This document shows, piece by piece, positions 223 to 17,876 of a DNA stretch of 18,378 nucleotides. A program made the position numbers and the translations under genes. The number at the start of each line of letters is the position of its first letter. Positions within the stretch are counted from its first letter, which is position 1. Source of the DNA: a virus (Duplodnaviria; Heunggongvirae; Uroviricota; Caudoviricetes); IMG/VR virus record IMGVR_UViG_3300029190_000051. The stretch is one strand, 5' to 3'. The notes under the pieces are model-generated. The model did not search any database. It was not told the origin of the DNA and saw only the letters and a list, made by a program, of their open reading frames with translations.

Positions 223-570
223 TTACGAATTACTGCGGCGCTGTTGCTTTTCCGCATGTACGCGTTTCACAATCTTATAAATCCATTGCAGCGTCAGATT
301 ATATTTCTTCGCTAATTCGGCGTAGTTGCGCCCATCGCACTCGCTATAGATTTGGTAGTCACGCTCCGATGCTCGTCCGGAGATCCCCTTAGGGAAATAG
401 ATGCTTTGTCCGCCCCAGTTACGCATCATTCGGTCGGCAATGGCAAAACCCACATTTTCTGCCGATGAACTGTCGAGATTGATGCTTTCAATCAGAACTT
501 GCGATGCATGAAAAGCCAGGTCGTTAATGATCTCCGGTGTCCGGGCCATCTCTTTTGATTTTCGTATCAT
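223..570 (-). CDS. Mor/C-family transcriptional activator (phage Mu middle/late activator homologue)
   Basis: 115-aa ORF. The segment RNWGGQSIYFPKGISGRASERDYQIYSECDGRNYAELAKKYNLTLQWIYKIVKR aligns by eye with the recalled Mu Mor core (GGGQVYIPRG...IWNDFNGRN..EL...YG.T...VYK..RR), including the C-terminal helix-turn-helix. A GGAG ribosome-binding site lies 8 nt upstream of the ATG on the minus strand. Confidence 0.8.
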   Translation of the reverse strand: MIRKSKEMARTPEIINDLAFHASQVLIESINLDSSSAENVGFAIADRMMRNWGGQSIYFPKGISGRASERDYQIYSECDGRNYAELAKKYNLTLQWIYKIVKRVHAEKQQRRSNS

Positions 571-791: not shown

Positions 792-811
792 TACTGTATA
801 CATATACAGTA
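792..811. promoter_or_regulatory. LexA operator (SOS box), near-consensus
   Basis: TACTGTATACATATACAGTA matches the enterobacterial LexA consensus TACTGTATATATATACAGTA at 19 of 20 positions (CTGT-N8-ACAG with an AT-rich spacer), and is part of a perfect 10-bp inverted repeat ATACTGTATA/TATACAGTAT. It sits in the AT-rich divergent region between the Mor-like gene and the lysis/tail operon. Confidence 0.75.
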
Positions 812-1107
812 TTATTTTTACCTGTAGAGTAAAAAGATCGTTTCCCTCACAGTCGCTGACTTTCTTAAACAAACTTTAAAAATCAAATAACTATCGACTA
901 TTCCTACGATCCACCATCATCTTTCCCCTGCATAATGACGCGCTTATTAGCCTGGTCACCTTTTGCTCTTTAATTGCTGAGTCGATTTATTAGCGGGCTT
1001 GTTCATTTATAGAGAATCTATTTTTTAAACTTATTTATTAAAGCTTTTTTCATTCTTCACTGGCGGGTTCTGACGACACTAAACGCTCACTTATCAGGAG
1101 ATATCGT

Positions 1108-1395
1108 ATGAAAAAAGTCACTTTTCCCCGGCTTTCCGGCTGGCTAGTCGCTTCCGCCGCGCTGTTTGTCGTGATCGGCTGGACCTCTTCCGCACAGATC
1201 CCGGTCGTCATTTATAAACTAAGCCTGGTTTCGCTTTCCGCGGTGCTGGGATACTGGCTCGATCGCAGTTTGTTCCCCTGGGCACGGCCTGACTCTTTTA
1301 GCCCCTGGAAGGAACCTCGTTGCTGCGCGGCGGCAATGATTCGCCGCGCCATCATCGTTGCCGCCGTCTGTCTTTCCGTCGCCTTAGGGCTATAG
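1108..1395 (+). CDS. Putative holin (small membrane protein with about three hydrophobic segments), first gene of the lysis cassette
   Basis: 95 aa with hydrophobic stretches WLVASAALFVVIGW, VVIYKLSLVSLSAVLGYWL and AIIVAAVCLSVALGL. AGGAG lies 7 nt upstream of the ATG. The stop overlaps the endolysin start (TAGTGATG). Called by position and topology only. Confidence 0.45.
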   Translation: MKKVTFPRLSGWLVASAALFVVIGWTSSAQIPVVIYKLSLVSLSAVLGYWLDRSLFPWARPDSFSPWKEPRCCAAAMIRRAIIVAAVCLSVALGL

Positions 1396-1397
1396 TG

Positions 1398-2003
1398 ATG
1401 TGGCTGAAATATATCGCGTCTATGATTATTTTCGTTCTTTTCCCGCTTAACGCCTCTGAACCGCCGCGAGCCTCTCTGGCATGGCGAAACGAACTAATTC
1501 GTACAGCTCGAGAAGTCTGGGGGCTGAATGCTCCAGTGGCCGACTTTGCCGGGCAATTACACCAGGAGTCCGCCTGGCAGCCAATGGTACGTTCCCCCGT
1601 TGGCGCACAAGGTATGGCGCAATTTATGCCTGCTACAGCGACATGGATAAGCCAGTTGTATCCACAATTGCGTGAAAACAAACCGTATAACCCAACCTGG
1701 GCGATTCGCGCGCTGGTGCAATATGACCAGCATTTGTGGAAAAACATCTCTGCGAAAAATGATTGTCAGCGTATGGCGTTTACCCTAAGCGCCTATAACG
1801 GCGGTCAGGGGTGGGTTAACCGGGATAAAAAACTGGCTGCATCCAAAGGGTTAGATGCCACTAGCTGGTTTGGTCATGTTGAGCAAGTCAACGCCGGGCG
1901 CAGCGCCACGAACTGGCGAGAAAATCGTCGCTATCCAAAGATGATCCTCTATCAACATGCCGCCCGCTATTTACTCTGGGGACAGGCAAGCTGTCTTCAT
2001 TAA
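1398..2003 (+). CDS. Endolysin, soluble lytic transglycosylase (SLT/GH23-like) with N-terminal hydrophobic signal or SAR-like segment
   Basis: Contains the SLT-type motif region HQESAWQP...GAQGMAQFMPATA and a downstream AYNGG motif. The N-terminus MWLKYIASMIIFVLFPLNA is hydrophobic. I prefer the ATG at 1398 (GTG at 1395 also possible) over the track start at 1320, which would overlap the holin by about 75 nt. Confidence 0.75.
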   Translation: MWLKYIASMIIFVLFPLNASEPPRASLAWRNELIRTAREVWGLNAPVADFAGQLHQESAWQPMVRSPVGAQGMAQFMPATATWISQLYPQLRENKPYNPTWAIRALVQYDQHLWKNISAKNDCQRMAFTLSAYNGGQGWVNRDKKLAASKGLDATSWFGHVEQVNAGRSATNWRENRRYPKMILYQHAARYLLWGQASCLH

Positions 2004-2015
2004 TCAGAGGGGCCG

Positions 2016-2330
2016 ATGAAACTCAGTATCGATTTTTGGGAAGTGATCTCCCTTATGCTTTCCTTCGTTGGATTAATGTTTGCTGCCGGAAAACTGCTGT
2101 TAGCACAAATTGAAAAACGACTTAATGAGCGTTTTGAGTCTCTGGAAAATGCCCGCAGGGAATCAGAAACAAGTTGGTCGAAACTGGAAAGAGAATTTCT
2201 CGAATTTCGTGCCGAGCTTCCGCTGCATTATGTCCGCAGAGAAGATTATCTTCGTGGGCAAGCAGTATTAGAAGCGAAGCTGGATGCCTTATATAGCAAA
2301 ATCGAGCTGTTACAACGTGGCAGTTATTGA
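2016..2330 (+). CDS. Lysis accessory protein: N-terminal transmembrane helix plus coiled-coil (i-spanin-like or releasin-like)
   Basis: 104 aa with one N-terminal hydrophobic helix (VISLMLSFVGLMFAAGKLLL) followed by a charged helical region. It immediately follows the endolysin. I found no embedded lipoprotein (o-spanin) ORF in the other frames. Confidence 0.4.
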   Translation: MKLSIDFWEVISLMLSFVGLMFAAGKLLLAQIEKRLNERFESLENARRESETSWSKLEREFLEFRAELPLHYVRREDYLRGQAVLEAKLDALYSKIELLQRGSY

Positions 2331-2333
2331 AAA

Positions 2334-2367
2334 ATCCCCACCCTTATGTAAGGGTGGGGATTTTTTT
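2334..2367 (+). terminator. Rho-independent terminator after the lysis cassette
   Basis: ATCCCCACCCT / AGGGTGGGGAT forms an 11-bp GC-rich stem with a short loop, followed by a run of seven T. Confidence 0.7.
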
Positions 2368-2474
2368 AACCATTCAATTTTTTCTCTAAATCACATTAAA
2401 AGATTCTTCACCTTCGCTGCTTCAGAATACATTTCAACGATAACGAAGTGAGCGGTAATTAAGGTACAGCCTAT

Positions 2475-2930
2475 ATGGAAATTTTATCTGTAATGAATTC
2501 TGTTGTGACCAGATTACGTGAACACAACTCCGAAATGGATATATTTATTTCATCTAAGGATGCCCAGAAATATATTCCACAGACACAACGAGTTGCAGTG
2601 ATTATTAATTATAGCGGTTCTGTCTTTGCTACGCCCGAAAGCAGTAATGCCATCGTGCAACAGCAAATACTCCGCTTAACCGCCACCGTTATTGTTGGCA
2701 AAAATTGTGATGCATTAAACGCACTTGATCACATACGCAGCGCATTGGGTGGCCTTCCGCTTCCTGATTGTGATCGTCTGCTTTGGCTTGAAAAAGAAAT
2801 TAATACGGGTGAGAGCGGCGGTTTCTGCCGCTACATCCTGGAAATGGCGACCAGCTCGCTGTTTATCGCTGAACAGGAAAGCACGGATCTTCCCCTGCTT
2901 ACGGAAGTTAACTACGAGGAAACTGAATGA
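2475..2930 (+). CDS. Phage tail protein immediately upstream of the sheath gene (Mu gp37-like position; tail terminator/completion-like)
   Basis: 151-aa ORF, first gene after the terminator, overlapping the next ORF by 4 bp. Assigned by gene order and size relative to Mu-like tail modules, not by a recognised motif. Confidence 0.35.
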   Translation: MEILSVMNSVVTRLREHNSEMDIFISSKDAQKYIPQTQRVAVIINYSGSVFATPESSNAIVQQQILRLTATVIVGKNCDALNALDHIRSALGGLPLPDCDRLLWLEKEINTGESGGFCRYILEMATSSLFIAEQESTDLPLLTEVNYEETE

Positions 2931-5062: not shown

Positions 5063-5112
5063 GTTATTCGGGGCTACGGCCCCGAACTTTGCAAAATAAA
5101 TAAGGACACAAA

Positions 5113-10194: not shown

Positions 10195-10896
10195 ATGAAA
10201 GGAGTAACCCGTCAAACGGGGATTATCAGCGATATTGACGAAACCAGCGTTCGGGTGCGGGTCACGCTCCCGGAGTGTGACAATCTGAAGAGCAACTGGC
10301 TTGCGGTACTTCAACGCAATTCCCAGGACAATAAAGACTACTGGCTACCGGATATGGGCGAGCAAGTGGAAGTTCTGCTGGACAATAACGGTGAAGATGG
10401 CGTGGTGCTGGGCGCAGTTTATTCTACGGTTGACACCGCGCCTGTAGCCTCGCGCGACAAACGTTACGTCCAGTTTTCTGATGGCGCAGCGTTTGAATAT
10501 GACCGCAGCACGCACCAGCTGACGATCAACGGCGGTATCGAGAAAATCGTGATTGAGGTTATCAACGGTACCTGCCTGACATCGCCCAACGTTGAGATTA
10601 AAGCCCAACAGGTCACCGTGACTTCCGATACCGTCGATGTTAAAGCGACCGATGTCAGCATCGACGCCACTAAGGTCGAGGTTAAAGCAGCAGCAGTGAC
10701 GGTAGATGCGCCCATGAGCACCTTTACTGGCAACGTCACGGTAATGAAAAAACTCACCTGGCTTGGCGGGATGGCAGGAAGTGGAGGCATCGGTAACGCA
10801 GCCACGATAACCGGCAATGTCAACGTGATCGGCAACGTTCAGGCCAGCGGCGCATTGCAGGACAGCGGTGGCAACTCCAACCACCATTCACACTGA
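10195..10896 (+). CDS. Baseplate central spike (P2 gpV-like / gp5-VgrG-like) with a His-rich C-terminal tip
   Basis: 233 aa. The N-terminal region is OB-fold-like, followed by repetitive beta-strand-like V/T/D-rich segments (VTVTSDTVDVKATDVSIDATKVEVKAAAVTVDA). The C-terminus is ...GGNSNHHSH, consistent with an apex metal-binding His motif. Confidence 0.75.
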   Translation: MKGVTRQTGIISDIDETSVRVRVTLPECDNLKSNWLAVLQRNSQDNKDYWLPDMGEQVEVLLDNNGEDGVVLGAVYSTVDTAPVASRDKRYVQFSDGAAFEYDRSTHQLTINGGIEKIVIEVINGTCLTSPNVEIKAQQVTVTSDTVDVKATDVSIDATKVEVKAAAVTVDAPMSTFTGNVTVMKKLTWLGGMAGSGGIGNAATITGNVNVIGNVQASGALQDSGGNSNHHSH

Positions 10897-10902
10897 CGTT
10901 TA

Positions 10903-10931
10903 ACCCGCCTGATGGCGGGTTTTCTCTTTTT
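10903..10931 (+). terminator. Rho-independent terminator-like hairpin between the spike and wedge genes
   Basis: ACCCGCC tgat GGCGGGT followed by TTTCTCTTTTT. Confidence 0.5.
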
Positions 10932-10994
10932 AATCAATCAGTTTTCTAAATCGCTTTAATATCTCCACAGCCCGTTCAGGGCGAAAATACCCTC

Positions 10995-11354
10995 ATGAAC
11001 ACAAAAACACGCCCCTCAACGCTGCACTGGCAACCGGCCTTGCTGCGGCCTGAAGAATACGTCTGCGGACTGGATGATATTCACCAGGCAATACACATCA
11101 TTCTGCGTACACCGCGCGGCAGTGATCCCCACAGACCGCTGTTTGGCAGCAACTTGTGGCACTACATCGATTACCCCATCGAGCGGGCTATCCCGCATGT
11201 GGTACGGGAGTCGGTGGAAGCCATCCGCCAGTGGGAACCGCGCTGTCGGTTGCTGAAGGTGACACCAGTAATCGACGGCGAACATCTGACGTTACGTGTG
11301 CAATGGCGCGCCGCTGACGGCGTTATCAACTCAACGGAGGTGTTATGGCGATAG
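10995..11354 (+). CDS. Baseplate wedge protein (P2 gpW-like / T4 gp25-like)
   Basis: 119 aa with IHIILRTPRGSDPHRPLFGSNLWHYID...IRQWEPRCRL, which fits the recalled gpW/gp25 pattern (ILRTP.GSR...YGS.L...WEPR). Confidence 0.8.
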   Translation: MNTKTRPSTLHWQPALLRPEEYVCGLDDIHQAIHIILRTPRGSDPHRPLFGSNLWHYIDYPIERAIPHVVRESVEAIRQWEPRCRLLKVTPVIDGEHLTLRVQWRAADGVINSTEVLWR

Positions 11355-15943: not shown

Positions 15944-15962
15944 GCCGGGCTTTATGCCCGGC
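15944..15962. terminator. GC-rich hairpin shared by the convergent tail operon and nucleotidyltransferase operon
   Basis: GCCGGGC ttta(t) GCCCGGC lies 6 nt after the cargo-gene stop and overlaps the last codons of the minus-strand gene. Confidence 0.5.
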
Positions 15963-16752
15963 ACATTACCGTTTGATACAGCAAATTATCTAGCTCCCGA
16001 ACATCTCCATCTCGACTGTCCGGTAAAATCGGTGGAATTTCCCCGCGCGCCAGTTCCGCGCGAATAAACGCATGCAATAAAGGACGGCGCAGTCCATATT
16101 CCGCTTCACTCGCACGCTGTTTACGCTCCAGCAATTCATCTATTTCTGCGCGTAAGGCCGCATCCAACTCACTTCCCGCCAGTAACTCGGCAAAGCGCAT
16201 TGGCGGCACGCCTTTTCCCGCTTCAACCCAGCGTACGGCCAGCAGCGGGCGCAGCACGTAAAAGTATTTTTTCAGTCGAACTTCGTCGCCCTGTAAATAA
16301 CCGCGAAAGTTTTTCTGCGCCATCGAATAGTAATGCCAACGCGCGCGCAACGAAGAAAACCACATTGGGACCATTGCCTTAAGCGCCGTTATCGTTTCTT
16401 CATCTTGTTGATAGACCACCGGAGAATCCAGCCATTCTATCAGCGTCGGATTCGCGCCTTTCAATAATCCCAGCGCCTTACGCCACTCCCAACCGGAAAC
16501 ATCTAACTCGTCGTCGATAGGCAGTTCGATAACATCGCGCGGTGACTCTACACGCAGATACCATTCTAGCGGATGGACATACAAAAACCGTACATCGTAG
16601 TCGCTATCGGGCGAGGCAAATCCCCAGCCGCGGCTGCCTGATTCACAGGCGTACAGCACTTTCACGCCATAGCGACGTTCTATTTCTTTTAACTGCTGCG
16701 ATACCCGTTCGCGCATCGCAGCACTGACTCCATTTAATGGCATTTGACTCAT
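15952..16752 (-). CDS. Pol-beta-superfamily nucleotidyltransferase-fold protein
   Basis: 266 aa. VLYACESGSRGWGFASPDSDYDVRFLYV contains the G-S...D-x-D signature of minimal nucleotidyltransferases, with a further acidic cluster (IDDELDVSGWEW). The start overlaps the upstream gene's stop (ATGA on the minus strand). Confidence 0.65.
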   Translation of the reverse strand: MSQMPLNGVSAAMRERVSQQLKEIERRYGVKVLYACESGSRGWGFASPDSDYDVRFLYVHPLEWYLRVESPRDVIELPIDDELDVSGWEWRKALGLLKGANPTLIEWLDSPVVYQQDEETITALKAMVPMWFSSLRARWHYYSMAQKNFRGYLQGDEVRLKKYFYVLRPLLAVRWVEAGKGVPPMRFAELLAGSELDAALRAEIDELLERKQRASEAEYGLRRPLLHAFIRAELARGEIPPILPDSRDGDVRELDNLLYQTVMCRA

Positions 16753-17876
16753 CCTTTGATATTCACTAACCCGTGCAGAACCTGATCCAGACCACCAAAT
16801 ACAGAGATGTTATCGATCCGCTCAGCCACTCTCTCCAGCGTTTCCAGTTCTTTTAAGCGTAACGCCACCGGGTTGTTTTCCATGACTTTAGCGGTATTGA
16901 GTAACGAACGCGTCGCTGCCGTTTCTTCACGCCGACGAATCACATTCGCCTGCGCAGATTTCTCTGCCTCAACCAGCTGCGCGAGGATATTTTTCATATC
17001 ACCAGGCAGGACGATATCTTTCACCCCTAATGAGGCAATCTCCATACCAAATGGCAACATGCGCGATTTCACCTGTTCGCTGACAACGTCATCAATGACC
17101 TGTTTATCTTCCAGCAACTCATCCAGCGTACGCGTACCTACCGCTTCACGCAGTGCAAATTGCAATTCCCGATACAAATGATCAATCGGCTTCGTTAACT
17201 GACTAAATGCCAATAACACGTCGCTGTAGCGCCAGTTGGCGGCGAGGTTAATCCGCAGATTGACCTTATCTTTCGTTAAGATTTCTTGCCCGCTGACTTC
17301 CAGTACCTGCAAGCGGGTGTCAACCACTTCAGCTTCAACCAGATGGTTAATTTTCCAGTACGCAGTCAGTCCCGGCGGTAACAGCGCCTGCGTTTTACCA
17401 TCGATTTTCAGTACACCTACGTGCCAGGCCGGAACCTGCACCGTCAGTATCGCATCGCGGCCTTTAACTGCCCCTTTGCGCCGTGGCTGCAATACCGCAT
17501 TCATCACCTCCGTTTGAACCTGGACTTGCTGCGTACTCATCCGCACCAGCGTCAAATCATCCTCTACACGCCAGTACAAACGACGCGTTGATGGCGGCAG
17601 GATCTCCAGCAAAATACCGTCCATATACAACGCCCCGGCTTCAGTCTCCGACAAGTCGGCCACCACGCAATATCTTTCCACCCACTCTGGCTGAAAGCGG
17701 CGCAAATAATCCGCCAGCACGTCGGGAACTTCGCTGCCATCGAGCGTAATCAGCAAGACTTCTGGCGTATTTAACCAGGGTAAAAGATGCTCGCCTGCAT
17801 GCAGCACTTTGTAGTAATCGCCATTTCTGGAAAGTAATGCCAGCTGATCTTTTCTTACGCTTATTTTCTTAATCAT
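16749..17876 (-). CDS. Soluble SPFH/band-7-like domain protein with an unassigned N-terminal domain of about 150 aa
   Basis: 375 aa. The C-terminal roughly 220 aa have stomatin/HflC-like character (LEVSGQEILTKDKVNLRINLAANWRYSD..., ...AEKSAQANVIRRREE..., ...LRLKELETLERVAERIDNISVFGG). No N-terminal hydrophobic membrane anchor is visible. AGGAA lies 6 nt upstream of the ATG. Confidence 0.5.
   Translation of the reverse strand: MIKKISVRKDQLALLSRNGDYYKVLHAGEHLLPWLNTPEVLLITLDGSEVPDVLADYLRRFQPEWVERYCVVADLSETEAGALYMDGILLEILPPSTRRLYWRVEDDLTLVRMSTQQVQVQTEVMNAVLQPRRKGAVKGRDAILTVQVPAWHVGVLKIDGKTQALLPPGLTAYWKINHLVEAEVVDTRLQVLEVSGQEILTKDKVNLRINLAANWRYSDVLLAFSQLTKPIDHLYRELQFALREAVGTRTLDELLEDKQVIDDVVSEQVKSRMLPFGMEIASLGVKDIVLPGDMKNILAQLVEAEKSAQANVIRRREETAATRSLLNTAKVMENNPVALRLKELETLERVAERIDNISVFGGLDQVLHGLVNIKG

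What the first reader, a model, noticed from the sequence alone, without database searches (positions are those of the whole stretch)
1037..1060. Shared upstream motif (ATTAAAG ... ATTCTTCAC) before both the lysis operon and the tail operon: candidate activator-dependent late promoters
An exact 9-mer ATTCTTCAC occurs at 1052-1060 (48 bp before the holin ATG) and again at 2403-2411 (64 bp before the first tail gene). Each copy is preceded by ATTAAAG within 10 bp, and each is preceded further upstream by a TTTTTTAA(A)C run. A related TCTAAATC element occurs at 2385-2392 and at 10945-10952, upstream of the wedge/fibre gene block. Mor/C-family activators act at specific upstream sites of phage late promoters, so these shared elements are the best candidates for the activator's targets here.
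Basis: seen in the sequence. Interest (0 to 1): 0.45.

Follow-up and report, generated by a model that had tools for sequence, protein, structure and literature searches.

The report
Mor-type late promoters of a tailocin

Summary
The window is an E. coli chromosomal island beside lysC. It carries mor, a lysis cassette and a complete contractile-tail module, with no head genes.

The exact 9-mer ATTCTTCAC is not a conserved element:
- Some shared 9-mer between two such T-rich regions appears in 11-17% of shuffles.
- It lies 3 bp out of register at the two sites.
- Across five genera it is invariant at only 2/9 columns (lysis site) and 0/9 columns (tail site).

What is conserved is a 16-bp dyad, consensus TTTAAAGC|GCTTTAAA, starting exactly 38 nt before a -10 hexamer nAnnnT, with no -35. 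It occurs before the holin gene (1037-1052, -10 at 1075-1080), gp37 (2385-2400, 2423-2428) and gpW (10945-10960, 10983-10988).

A matrix trained only on gpW sites of other genomes ranks these three as the top hits in the window. It also finds 200 same-strand hits against 6 opposite-strand hits in 1.57 Mb of related loci. The geometry matches the Mu Mor site (16-bp dyad centred at -43.5).

This is a new member of a known kind. No transcription start or protein binding was measured here.

The parts
223..570 (-). mor: a Mor/C-family transcription activator (115 aa), the only regulator gene in the island
   Evidence: Pfam PF08765, E=7e-38. 27% identical to Mu Mor and 34% to Mu C. 45% (alignment) to 49% (tblastn) identical to BcepMu gp01. 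It shares the helix (T/S)LQWIYKI with gp01 but not with Mu Mor or C.
792..811 (.). LexA (SOS) box TACTGTATACATATACAGTA in the mor-holin intergenic region
   Evidence: One mismatch to the consensus, none expected by chance. Conserved in Salmonella, L002, L003 and L005, about 230-295 nt upstream of mor. The only sigma-70-like promoters in 560-2500 overlap or adjoin it.
1016..1036 (+). Invariant A+T-rich block (ATTTTTTAAAsTTATTTAT) just upstream of the lysis-promoter dyad; UP-element-like or a second, distal dyad (TAAACT|TATTTA, 1026-1037)
   Evidence: Almost every column is invariant in five genera while the flanks diverge (A1, A3). Its role is inferred by analogy with the proximal UP subsite of Mu Pm (PMC4390567).
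1037..1052 (+). P_lys dyad ATTAAAGC|TTTTTTCA: strong left half, weak right half
   Evidence: 10/16 columns invariant in five genera. Third-best matrix hit in the window at 12.1 bits. 8/2000 shuffles of its own intergenic region score as high.
1052..1060 (+).
   Evidence: 2/9 columns invariant. No sigma-70-type promoter is called here.
1075..1080 (+). P_lys -10 hexamer GACACT; start inferred near 1086-1089; holin ATG at 1108
   Evidence: The 12-bp dyad core ends 24 nt before it, as in all relatives. Columns A87, A89, C90 and T91 are invariant.
2329..2366 (+).
   Evidence: 17-bp stem, -26.9 kcal/mol, z=-5.96.
2385..2400 (+). P_tail dyad TCTAAATC|ACATTAAA
   Evidence: Second-best matrix hit at 23.4 bits; 0/300 whole-window and 0/2000 local shuffles reach it. 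9/16 columns invariant, plus the AG flank.
2403..2411 (+).
   Evidence: 0/9 columns invariant. Salmonella reads ACGCCTGAT here.
2423..2428 (+). P_tail -10 hexamer CAGAAT; start inferred near 2435-2436; gp37 ATG at 2475
   Evidence: 24 nt after the dyad core. Columns A100, A102, A103 and T104 are invariant.
10902..10921 (+). Intrinsic terminator after gpV
   Evidence: -15.3 kcal/mol, z=-5.7.
10945..10960 (+). P_W dyad TCTAAATC|GCTTTAAT, the best site in the window
   Evidence: 35.7 bits. The core has one mismatch to TAAAGCGCTTTA. Homologous sites run from Enterobacterales to Burkholderia, Chromobacterium and Pseudomonas.
10983..10988 (+). P_W -10 hexamer GAAAAT, 6 nt before the gpW ATG (10995), with no Shine-Dalgarno sequence; a leaderless mRNA is inferred
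   Evidence: Dyad-to-ATG distance is 36 nt in 47 loci, 37 in 6 and 38 in 11, while dyad-to-(-10) stays at 24.

Best explanation
Positions 1037-1060 are the core of the lysis-operon late promoter of a Mu/BcepMu-derived phage-tail island.

The functional signal is not ATTCTTCAC. It is an imperfect 16-bp dyad with consensus TTTAAAGC|GCTTTAAA: two 5-bp inverted repeats, TTTAA and TTAAA, separated by 6 bp. The dyad begins exactly 38 nt upstream of a -10 hexamer nAnnnT, and there is no -35 hexamer. The same architecture precedes gp37 (first tail gene) and gpW (baseplate and fibre genes).

Inferred mechanism:
- The island's Mor protein binds the dyad, centred about -42.5 to -43.5, and recruits sigma-70 RNA polymerase in place of a -35 contact, as Mu Mor does at Pm and Mu C does at the Mu late promoters.
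- mor itself lies behind a conserved LexA box. The likely cascade is DNA damage, then Mor, then the three late operons.
- Site scores are graded (gpW 35.7, tail 23.4, lysis 12.1 bits). This could place lysis last.
- The gpW transcript is predicted to start at its ATG, that is, to be leaderless.

Shown here: the sequence conservation, the fixed geometry, the strand bias, the absence of a -35, and the presence of a Mor-family gene.
Inferred: Mor binding, the transcription starts, SOS control of mor, and the timing.
For: - Closest orthologues (E. coli, Salmonella, two Superficieibacter, Phytobacter) conserve the dyad and the -10 but not the spacer.
- A matrix trained only on gpW-upstream sites of other loci ranks 10947, 2387 and 1039 (all + strand) as the top three of about 36,700 positions. 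Scores are 35.7, 23.4 and 12.1 bits. In 300 shuffles the maximum averaged 6.4 bits, and the third-best hit never exceeded 8.7.
- Local-composition shuffles reach the observed scores in 0/2000, 0/2000 and 8/2000 cases.
- In 1.57 Mb of 80 related loci there are 200 hits of 14 bits or more on the gene strand and 6 on the other. They recur before the holin, gp37, head-protease, tail-chaperone and gpW genes.
- Among 92 unique dyad-only hits outside gpW, 99% have A at position 2 and T at position 6 of a hexamer exactly 24 nt after the 12-bp core. Neighbouring offsets give 0-20%.
- Phage BcepMu, whose Mor homologue is gp01, has sites before gp21 (holin), gp32, gp41 and gp49.
- No sigma-70 -35/-10 pair is found at any of the three sites.
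- mor is Pfam PF08765, E=7e-38, and is the only regulator annotated in the island.
- Mor genes lie next to such promoters in Chromobacterium, Brenneria, Lelliottia and Pseudomonas loci.
- Mu Pm has a 16-bp dyad with 5-bp inverted repeats centred at -43.5, no -35, and a proximal UP subsite (PMC4390567, PMC4287176; cryo-EM preprint 10.1101/2025.05.02.651988).
Against: - No transcription start, binding or activation data exist for this element. Positions relative to +1 assume a start 7-8 nt after the -10.
- The lysis-promoter dyad has a weak right half (TTTTTT) and scores only 12.1 bits.
- The dyad sequence is unlike the Mu Mor and Mu C sites, so Mor binding is argued from geometry and gene linkage only.
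- Pectobacterium loci carry the same promoters but no Mor gene within the 21 kb fetched.
- Within the window alone, TAAAGCGCTTTA with up to 3 mismatches is no more frequent than chance: 13 matches against 10.3 expected.
- The gpW training sites are homologous to each other, so their number overstates independent evidence.
Confidence: 0.72

Rival explanations
1. One reading: the exact 9-mer ATTCTTCAC, with ATTAAAG just upstream, is the activator's recognition element shared by the lysis and tail promoters.
For: There are two exact copies where 0.15 are expected for that word. Both lie in the promoter regions. TCTTC is kept in four of the five lysis-site orthologues.
Against: Some shared 9-mer is expected in 11-17% of shuffles. 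The two copies are 23 and 20 nt before the -10, so they are 3 bp out of register. Only 2/9 and 0/9 columns are invariant across five genera, and Salmonella reads ACGCCTGAT at the tail site. The word is absent from the gpW promoter and from every more distant relative.
Confidence: 0.04
2. The conserved dyad is real, but something other than Mor reads it. One option is a host nucleoid protein or another factor. Another is that its right half plus flank (TTTAATAT / TTTAAAAG) is itself a -10 for an activator-independent promoter.
For: TAATAT at 10957-10962 matches TATAAT at 5 of 6 positions. The site is A+T-rich, like IHF or Fis sites. Pectobacterium loci lack a nearby Mor gene. Mor binding has not been tested.
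Against: The right halves at the lysis promoter (TTTTTT, GGTTTT, CCTTTT) are not -10-like. No -35 partner is called. A separate hexamer with invariant A2 and T6 sits exactly 24 nt downstream in 99% of independent sites. The island has no other regulator. The motif follows Mor-bearing BcepMu-type elements across two proteobacterial classes.
Confidence: 0.12
3. The three sites are read-through or processing signals rather than promoters, and the operons are transcribed from the LexA-controlled rightward promoter at 783-810.
For: A sigma-70-like promoter, TTTACA-16-TACAGT, points rightwards and overlaps the LexA box.
Against: Strong intrinsic terminators stand between the operons at 2329-2366 and 10902-10921. 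The fixed dyad-to-(-10) geometry is what a promoter needs, not an RNA signal. No Rfam family matches.
Confidence: 0.05

Closest known systems
Bacteriophage Mu middle promoter Pm (Mor-dependent)
   Same: A 16-bp imperfect dyad with two 5-bp inverted repeats centred near -43.5. A -10 is present and no -35 is recognisable. A/T-rich bases lie just upstream of the site. The activator belongs to the Mor/C family (PMC4390567, PMC4287176).
   Different: The half-site sequence is A+T-rich TTTAA/TTAAA around a GC centre, whereas Mu has G+C-rich repeats around TTAA. The protein is only 27% identical, with a different recognition helix. Here the activator drives late genes (lysis, tail) directly, with no intermediate C step.
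Mu late promoters Plys, PI, PP, Pmom (C-dependent)
   Same: One activator switches on several late operons, including a lysis operon and a mid-tail operon, from sites just upstream of the -35 region (PMC4461284).
   Different: The site sequence differs. C-specific features such as DNA untwisting at Pmom were not assessed.
Phage BcepMu and BcepMu-like prophages
   Same: Homologous Mor (gp01: 49% identity in tblastn; 45% in the alignment), holin, SLT lysin, Gp37, sheath and tube. The same dyad and -10 promoters occur before the lysis, head, tail-chaperone and gpW genes.
   Different: The E. coli island has lost the head, transposition and immunity genes and the tail-chaperone promoter. It has gained a LexA box.
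R-type tailocins (carotovoricin of Pectobacterium, R-pyocins)
   Same: A lysis cassette plus a contractile tail and no head. Pectobacterium clusters are 75% identical in sheath and carry the same promoter motif.
   Different: No particle or killing activity is known for the E. coli island. R-pyocins are regulated through PrtR/PrtN (from memory), whereas here the route would be LexA then Mor.
P2 gene V, a leaderless baseplate-operon mRNA (from memory: Moll et al. 2002 review; not found in the library)
   Same: A P2-type baseplate operon whose first gene has no leader and no Shine-Dalgarno sequence. Here the -10 ends 6 nt before the gpW ATG.
   Different: P2 uses Ogr and a TGT-N12-ACA site, which is absent here. 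The operon here starts at W, not V. The start is not mapped.

Membership tests
Mor/C-dependent promoters (Mu Pm and late-promoter type) | A Mor/C-family activator is encoded in the same element | tested here: met
   Pfam PF08765, E=7e-38, 129 bits against a cut-off of 24.9. BLASTP to Mu Mor gives 9e-13 and to Mu C 6e-11.
Mor/C-dependent promoters (Mu Pm and late-promoter type) | An imperfect dyad of about 16 bp with 5-bp inverted repeats centred near -43.5 | tested here: inconclusive
   The dyad TTTAAAGC|GCTTTAAA is present at all three sites and conserved. Its centre lies 30.5 bp before the -10, which gives -42.5 or -43.5 if the start is 7 or 8 nt after the -10. The start was not measured.
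Mor/C-dependent promoters (Mu Pm and late-promoter type) | A -10 hexamer is present and no usable -35 hexamer | tested here: met
   nAnnnT lies at a fixed 24 nt in 99% of 92 sites. No sigma-70 -35/-10 pair is called at 812-2500 (+ strand) or 10800-11100.
Mor/C-dependent promoters (Mu Pm and late-promoter type) | Transcription depends on the activator, and the activator binds the dyad | not testable with these tools
   Needs EMSA or footprinting and reporter assays.
P2/186 Ogr/Delta-dependent late promoters | A TGT-N12-ACA dyad near -55 and a zinc-finger Ogr/Delta gene | tested here: not met
   There are 4 TGT-N12-ACA matches where 4.3 are expected, none near the three promoters. No Ogr-like gene is annotated.
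LexA (SOS) operator | The palindrome TACTGTATATATATACAGTA (CTGT-N8-ACAG) overlapping a promoter | tested here: met
   792-811 has one mismatch and none is expected by chance. It is conserved in four other genera and overlaps sigma-70-like hexamers. The consensus was recalled from memory.
R-type tailocin | A complete contractile-tail gene set and a lysis cassette without capsid, packaging or replication genes | tested here: met
   Pfam finds sheath, tube, chaperone, tape measure, U, X, D, V, W, J, I, fibre, and holin plus SLT. Host genes flank the island on both sides.
R-type tailocin | Particles are produced and kill related strains | not testable with these tools
   Needs induction, electron microscopy and spot assays.
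Leaderless mRNA | The transcript's 5' end is at, or within a few nt of, the start codon | not testable with these tools
   Only geometry is available. The -10 ends 6-8 nt before the ATG in 64 loci and there is no Shine-Dalgarno sequence.

The most novel reading that the evidence does not exclude
Some E. coli lineages (196 of 5426 complete genomes) carry an intact, uncharacterised R-type tailocin beside lysC. Its whole programme would be a two-step circuit. A single LexA box releases one Mor-family activator. That activator then fires three promoters of graded strength: baseplate and fibre first, sheath and tube next, lysis last. The baseplate operon would be made as a leaderless mRNA. The promoter code (TTTAAAGC|GCTTTAAA, then 22 nt, then nAnnnT) would be shared by BcepMu-like phages and carotovoricin-type tailocins across Gamma- and Betaproteobacteria.
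Probability: 0.4. Interest if true: 0.5.

Novelty: new member of a known kind. Interest (0 to 1): 0.33.

Why it matters
The result gives a testable promoter code for the Mor homologues of BcepMu-like phages and the tailocins derived from them. About 200 instances with one rigid geometry were found here. I found no description of this code in the searchable literature.

It also lays out a minimal regulatory circuit for an apparently intact tailocin in E. coli, made of a LexA box, one activator and three promoters. That would help anyone who wants to induce, engineer or silence such particles.

The result also shows that an exact 9-mer shared by two short T-rich regions is weak evidence on its own.

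Tried and rejected
- The 9-mer as a motif: rejected by shuffles, register and conservation.
- The 12-bp palindrome counted in the window alone with up to 3 mismatches: not enriched, 13 matches against 10.3 expected. Only the composite of dyad, fixed spacing and -10, together with the comparison, carries weight.
- P2 Ogr-type sites: absent.
- Ordinary sigma-70 promoters at the three sites: none.
- Known RNA families: none in the window.
- An RNA hairpin bracketing the gpW -10: RNAalifold predicted nothing. Pair counts beat the shuffles, but a 1-column slide scores nearly as well. In the window itself the minimum-energy fold uses a different pairing. Left as inconclusive.
- Literature searches for an earlier description of this promoter motif, of a Mor-regulated tailocin, or of this E. 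coli island: none found. The ST131 'tailocin' paper concerns a P2-like prophage, not this locus. The original BcepMu and carotovoricin papers are not in the searchable library, so prior description cannot be excluded.
- A search for the P2 gene V leaderless mRNA in the library found nothing.

Full report
**What the window is.**
- The first 168 bases are the end of lysC.
- Then come a minus-strand mor gene (223-570) and a 537-bp intergenic region.
- Next is a lysis cassette: holin 1108-1395, SLT transglycosylase 1398-2003, and a small membrane protein 2016-2330.
- Next is a complete P2/BcepMu-type contractile tail module from Gp37 (2475) to the fibre and its assembly genes (to 15938).
- Last come two minus-strand cargo genes, a nucleotidyltransferase and a slipin.
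- There are no head, packaging, replication or immunity genes.
- The island lies between lysC and yjbD and is present in 196 of 5426 complete E. coli genomes.
- Salmonella has the same island at the same place (STM4207-STM4219). There it is cut off after gpV and followed by gtr genes.
- By gene content it is an R-type tailocin candidate.

**Checking the observation.**
The one exception is the second 'ATTAAAG', which is ATTAAAAG.
- The gap between that word and the 9-mer is 8 nt at one site and 0 nt at the other.
- ATTCTTCAC occurs twice where 0.15 copies are expected, but that is a post-hoc test of one word.
- I asked instead how often the 150 bp before the holin gene and the 144 bp before gp37 share any exact 9-mer. 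The answer was 17% and 15% of dinucleotide shuffles and 11% of mononucleotide shuffles.
- The same analysis turned up an equally long exact repeat, TGGCGGGTT. It links 1061-1069 to the stem of the terminator at 10913-10921 and is clearly meaningless.
- TCTAAATC twice or more occurs in 19/200 shuffles.
- On word statistics alone, nothing here is significant.

**What is conserved.**
- I fetched 80 loci encoding a close relative of the sheath protein, one genome per species.
- I located homologues of the window's genes in them.
- I read the regions upstream of the holin, gp37 and gpW homologues.
- In the four closest islands (two Superficieibacter, Phytobacter, Lelliottia) and in Salmonella, the intergenic DNA has diverged strongly.
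- Each of the three regions nevertheless keeps two blocks: a dyad, and a -10-like hexamer exactly 24 nt after the 12-bp core of the dyad.
- The dyad is a perfect palindrome in some relatives. Lelliottia has TTAAAGCGCTTTAA before gp37, and Phytobacter and Pandoraea have TAAAGCGCTTTA before gpW.
- Taken to 16 bp, the consensus is TTTAAAGC|GCTTTAAA: 5-bp inverted repeats TTTAA and TTAAA separated by 6 bp.

| Promoter | Dyad in the window | Coordinates | -10 hexamer | Coordinates |
|---|---|---|---|---|
| Lysis (before holin) | ATTAAAGC\|TTTTTTCA | 1037-1052 | GACACT | 1075-1080 |
| Tail (before gp37) | TCTAAATC\|ACATTAAA | 2385-2400 | CAGAAT | 2423-2428 |
| Baseplate (before gpW) | TCTAAATC\|GCTTTAAT | 10945-10960 | GAAAAT | 10983-10988 |

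- Each dyad starts exactly 38 nt before its -10.
- The 9-mer starts 23 nt before the -10 at the first site and 20 nt before it at the second.

Conservation in five-genus alignments (A3, A4), as invariant columns:

| Element | Lysis site | Tail site |
|---|---|---|
| 16-bp dyad | 10/16 | 9/16 |
| -10 hexamer | 4/6 | 4/6 |

- In Salmonella, the closest relative, the tail-site 9-mer reads ACGCCTGAT.

**Statistical tests that avoid circularity.**
- I built a weight matrix only from gpW-upstream sites of other loci.
- Using only the dyad, its flank and the -10 columns, I scanned both strands of the window.
- The top three of about 36,700 positions were 10947, 2387 and 1039, all on the + strand. They scored 35.7, 23.4 and 12.1 bits, and the next hit scored 8.8.
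- In 300 shuffled windows the best score averaged 6.4 bits (maximum 18.1). The third-best never exceeded 8.7.
- When each intergenic region was shuffled on its own composition, the observed score was reached in 0/2000 cases (gpW), 0/2000 (tail) and 8/2000 (lysis).
- Across the 1.57 Mb of related loci there are 200 hits of 14 bits or more on the gene strand and 6 on the other strand.
- These hits recur at fixed places: before the holin, before gp37 in tailocin-type clusters, before a head gene, before the tail-chaperone gene, and before gpW.
- I then scanned with the dyad columns alone and set aside the gpW sites.
- In that set, 99% of 92 unique sites have A at position 2 and T at position 6 of a hexamer exactly 24 nt downstream. 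Every other offset tested gave 0-21%.
- That pattern is the signature of a -10 element held at a rigid distance from an activator site.
- Phage BcepMu has its best hits before gp49 (gpW), gp32 (head protease), gp21 (holin) and gp41 (tail chaperone), plus one site of unclear target about 200 bp before gp19. Its gp01 is 49% identical to the window's Mor in tblastn.

**Comparison with what is known.**
- Mu Pm has a -10 but no recognisable -35, and it has a proximal UP subsite just upstream of the Mor site (PMC4390567, PMC4287176).
- A cryo-EM preprint shows Mor and C contacting the alpha C-terminal domain and sigma region 4 (10.1101/2025.05.02.651988).
- Here the dyad centre lies 30.5 bp before the -10. 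That places it at -42.5 or -43.5 for a start 7 or 8 nt after the -10.
- No sigma-70 -35/-10 pair is found at any of the three sites.
- T-rich DNA lies just upstream of each dyad.
- The dyad sequence itself is unlike Mu's. This fits a protein that is 27% identical to Mu Mor, with a different putative recognition helix.
- That helix is shared with BcepMu gp01: LTLQWIYKI against SLQWIYKI.
- P2-type Ogr sites are absent.

- ATTAAAG at 1037 and TCTAAATC at 2385 and 10945 are the left half of the dyad.
- ATTAAAAG at 2395 is the right half, so pairing it with 1037 compares non-equivalent positions.
- TTTTTTTAAC at 2361 is the U-tract of a strong terminator at 2329-2366 (-26.9 kcal/mol).
- TTTTTTAAAC at 1021 belongs to an A+T-rich block (1016-1036) that is invariant in five genera. 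It may be an UP-like element or a second, distal dyad.
- ATTCTTCAC is spacer.

**Most likely mechanism.** Everything in this section beyond the sequence facts is inferred.
- Mor binds the three dyads and recruits RNA polymerase.
- mor lies about 220 nt from a near-perfect LexA box at 792-811 (one mismatch, none expected).
- That box is conserved in Salmonella, Superficieibacter and Phytobacter but absent from more distant relatives.
- The only sigma-70-like promoters in the region overlap or adjoin the box, on both strands.
- DNA damage would therefore induce mor. Whether the box controls mor, a rightward transcript or both is unresolved.
- Terminators after the lysis genes and after gpV make three separate units.
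- The gpW -10 ends 6 nt before the ATG, with no Shine-Dalgarno sequence.
- In 64 related loci the -10-to-ATG gap is 6-8 nt, while the dyad-to-(-10) distance stays at 24 nt in almost all.
- A leaderless gpW mRNA is therefore predicted. P2 gene V is reported to be leaderless, but that is my recollection and I could not find it in the library.

**Caveats.**
- No start sites or binding data exist for this element.
- The lysis dyad is weak on its right side.
- Pectobacterium clusters have the promoters but no Mor gene within the DNA fetched.
- The original BcepMu and carotovoricin papers are not in the searchable library, so an earlier description of the motif cannot be excluded.

**Verdict.**
- The feature is a new member of a known kind, the Mor/C-type promoters, with a recognition sequence that appears to be undescribed.

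Noticed in passing
window 792-811: A near-consensus LexA box, TACTGTATACATATACAGTA, lies between mor and the holin gene. It is conserved in Salmonella, Superficieibacter and Phytobacter but not in more distant Mor-bearing relatives. It suggests direct SOS control of the island. Which strand it controls is unresolved.
   Followed up: partly
window 10983-10997: The gpW start codon follows the -10 hexamer by 6 nt with no Shine-Dalgarno sequence. The arrangement (6-8 nt) holds in 64 related loci across two proteobacterial classes. A leaderless baseplate-operon mRNA is predicted.
   Followed up: partly
L006:19133-19164, L049:18585-18616 and other gpW promoters; window 10977-10994: A G+C-rich inverted repeat brackets the gpW -10 in many relatives (GGGGGC GATACT GCCCCC; GCGGC ACGATA GCCGC), with some compensatory and G-T changes. 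The statistics are suggestive but not decisive, and no role is evident if the mRNA starts at the ATG.
   Followed up: partly
window 865-884: TTAAACAAACTTTAAAAATC resembles the dyad, but its half-sites are 1 nt further apart and there is no -10 at 24 nt. It is identical in Phytobacter (L005).
   Followed up: no
window 1061-1069 and 10913-10921: A second exact 9-mer, TGGCGGGTT, is shared between the lysis promoter spacer and the stem of the gpV terminator. It illustrates how easily such matches arise.
   Followed up: yes
L084 (Salmonella Infantis contig, STM4204-STM4219): Salmonella carries the orthologous island at the same lysC site. It ends after gpV, and gtrABC-type O-antigen glucosylation genes stand where the gpW-to-fibre genes should be. 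It keeps mor, the LexA box and the first two promoters.
   Followed up: partly
window 15952-17876 (- strand): Two non-tail cargo genes sit at the far end of the island, a nucleotidyltransferase-domain protein and a slipin (SPFH) family protein. Their function here is unknown, and a defence or accessory role was not examined.
   Followed up: no
window 5063-5112: Most relatives, including BcepMu, have a further Mor-type promoter between the tube and tail-chaperone genes. The window has only a hairpin there (TTCGGGGCTACGGCCCCGAA) and no dyad. This clade seems to have lost that promoter.
   Followed up: partly
window 10932-10944: AATCAATCAGTTT, just upstream of the gpW dyad, resembles the IHF consensus WATCAANNNNTTR (recalled from memory). 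TAATCAA-N4-TTT is kept in the three closest orthologues.
   Followed up: no
L023:6345, L027:6399, L004:11949, L007:12026 and similar: In relatives, the late promoters before the head-protease and tail-chaperone genes are followed at once by a stable hairpin. That hairpin would form the 5' end of the mRNA and holds the Shine-Dalgarno-like bases in its 3' arm.
   Followed up: no
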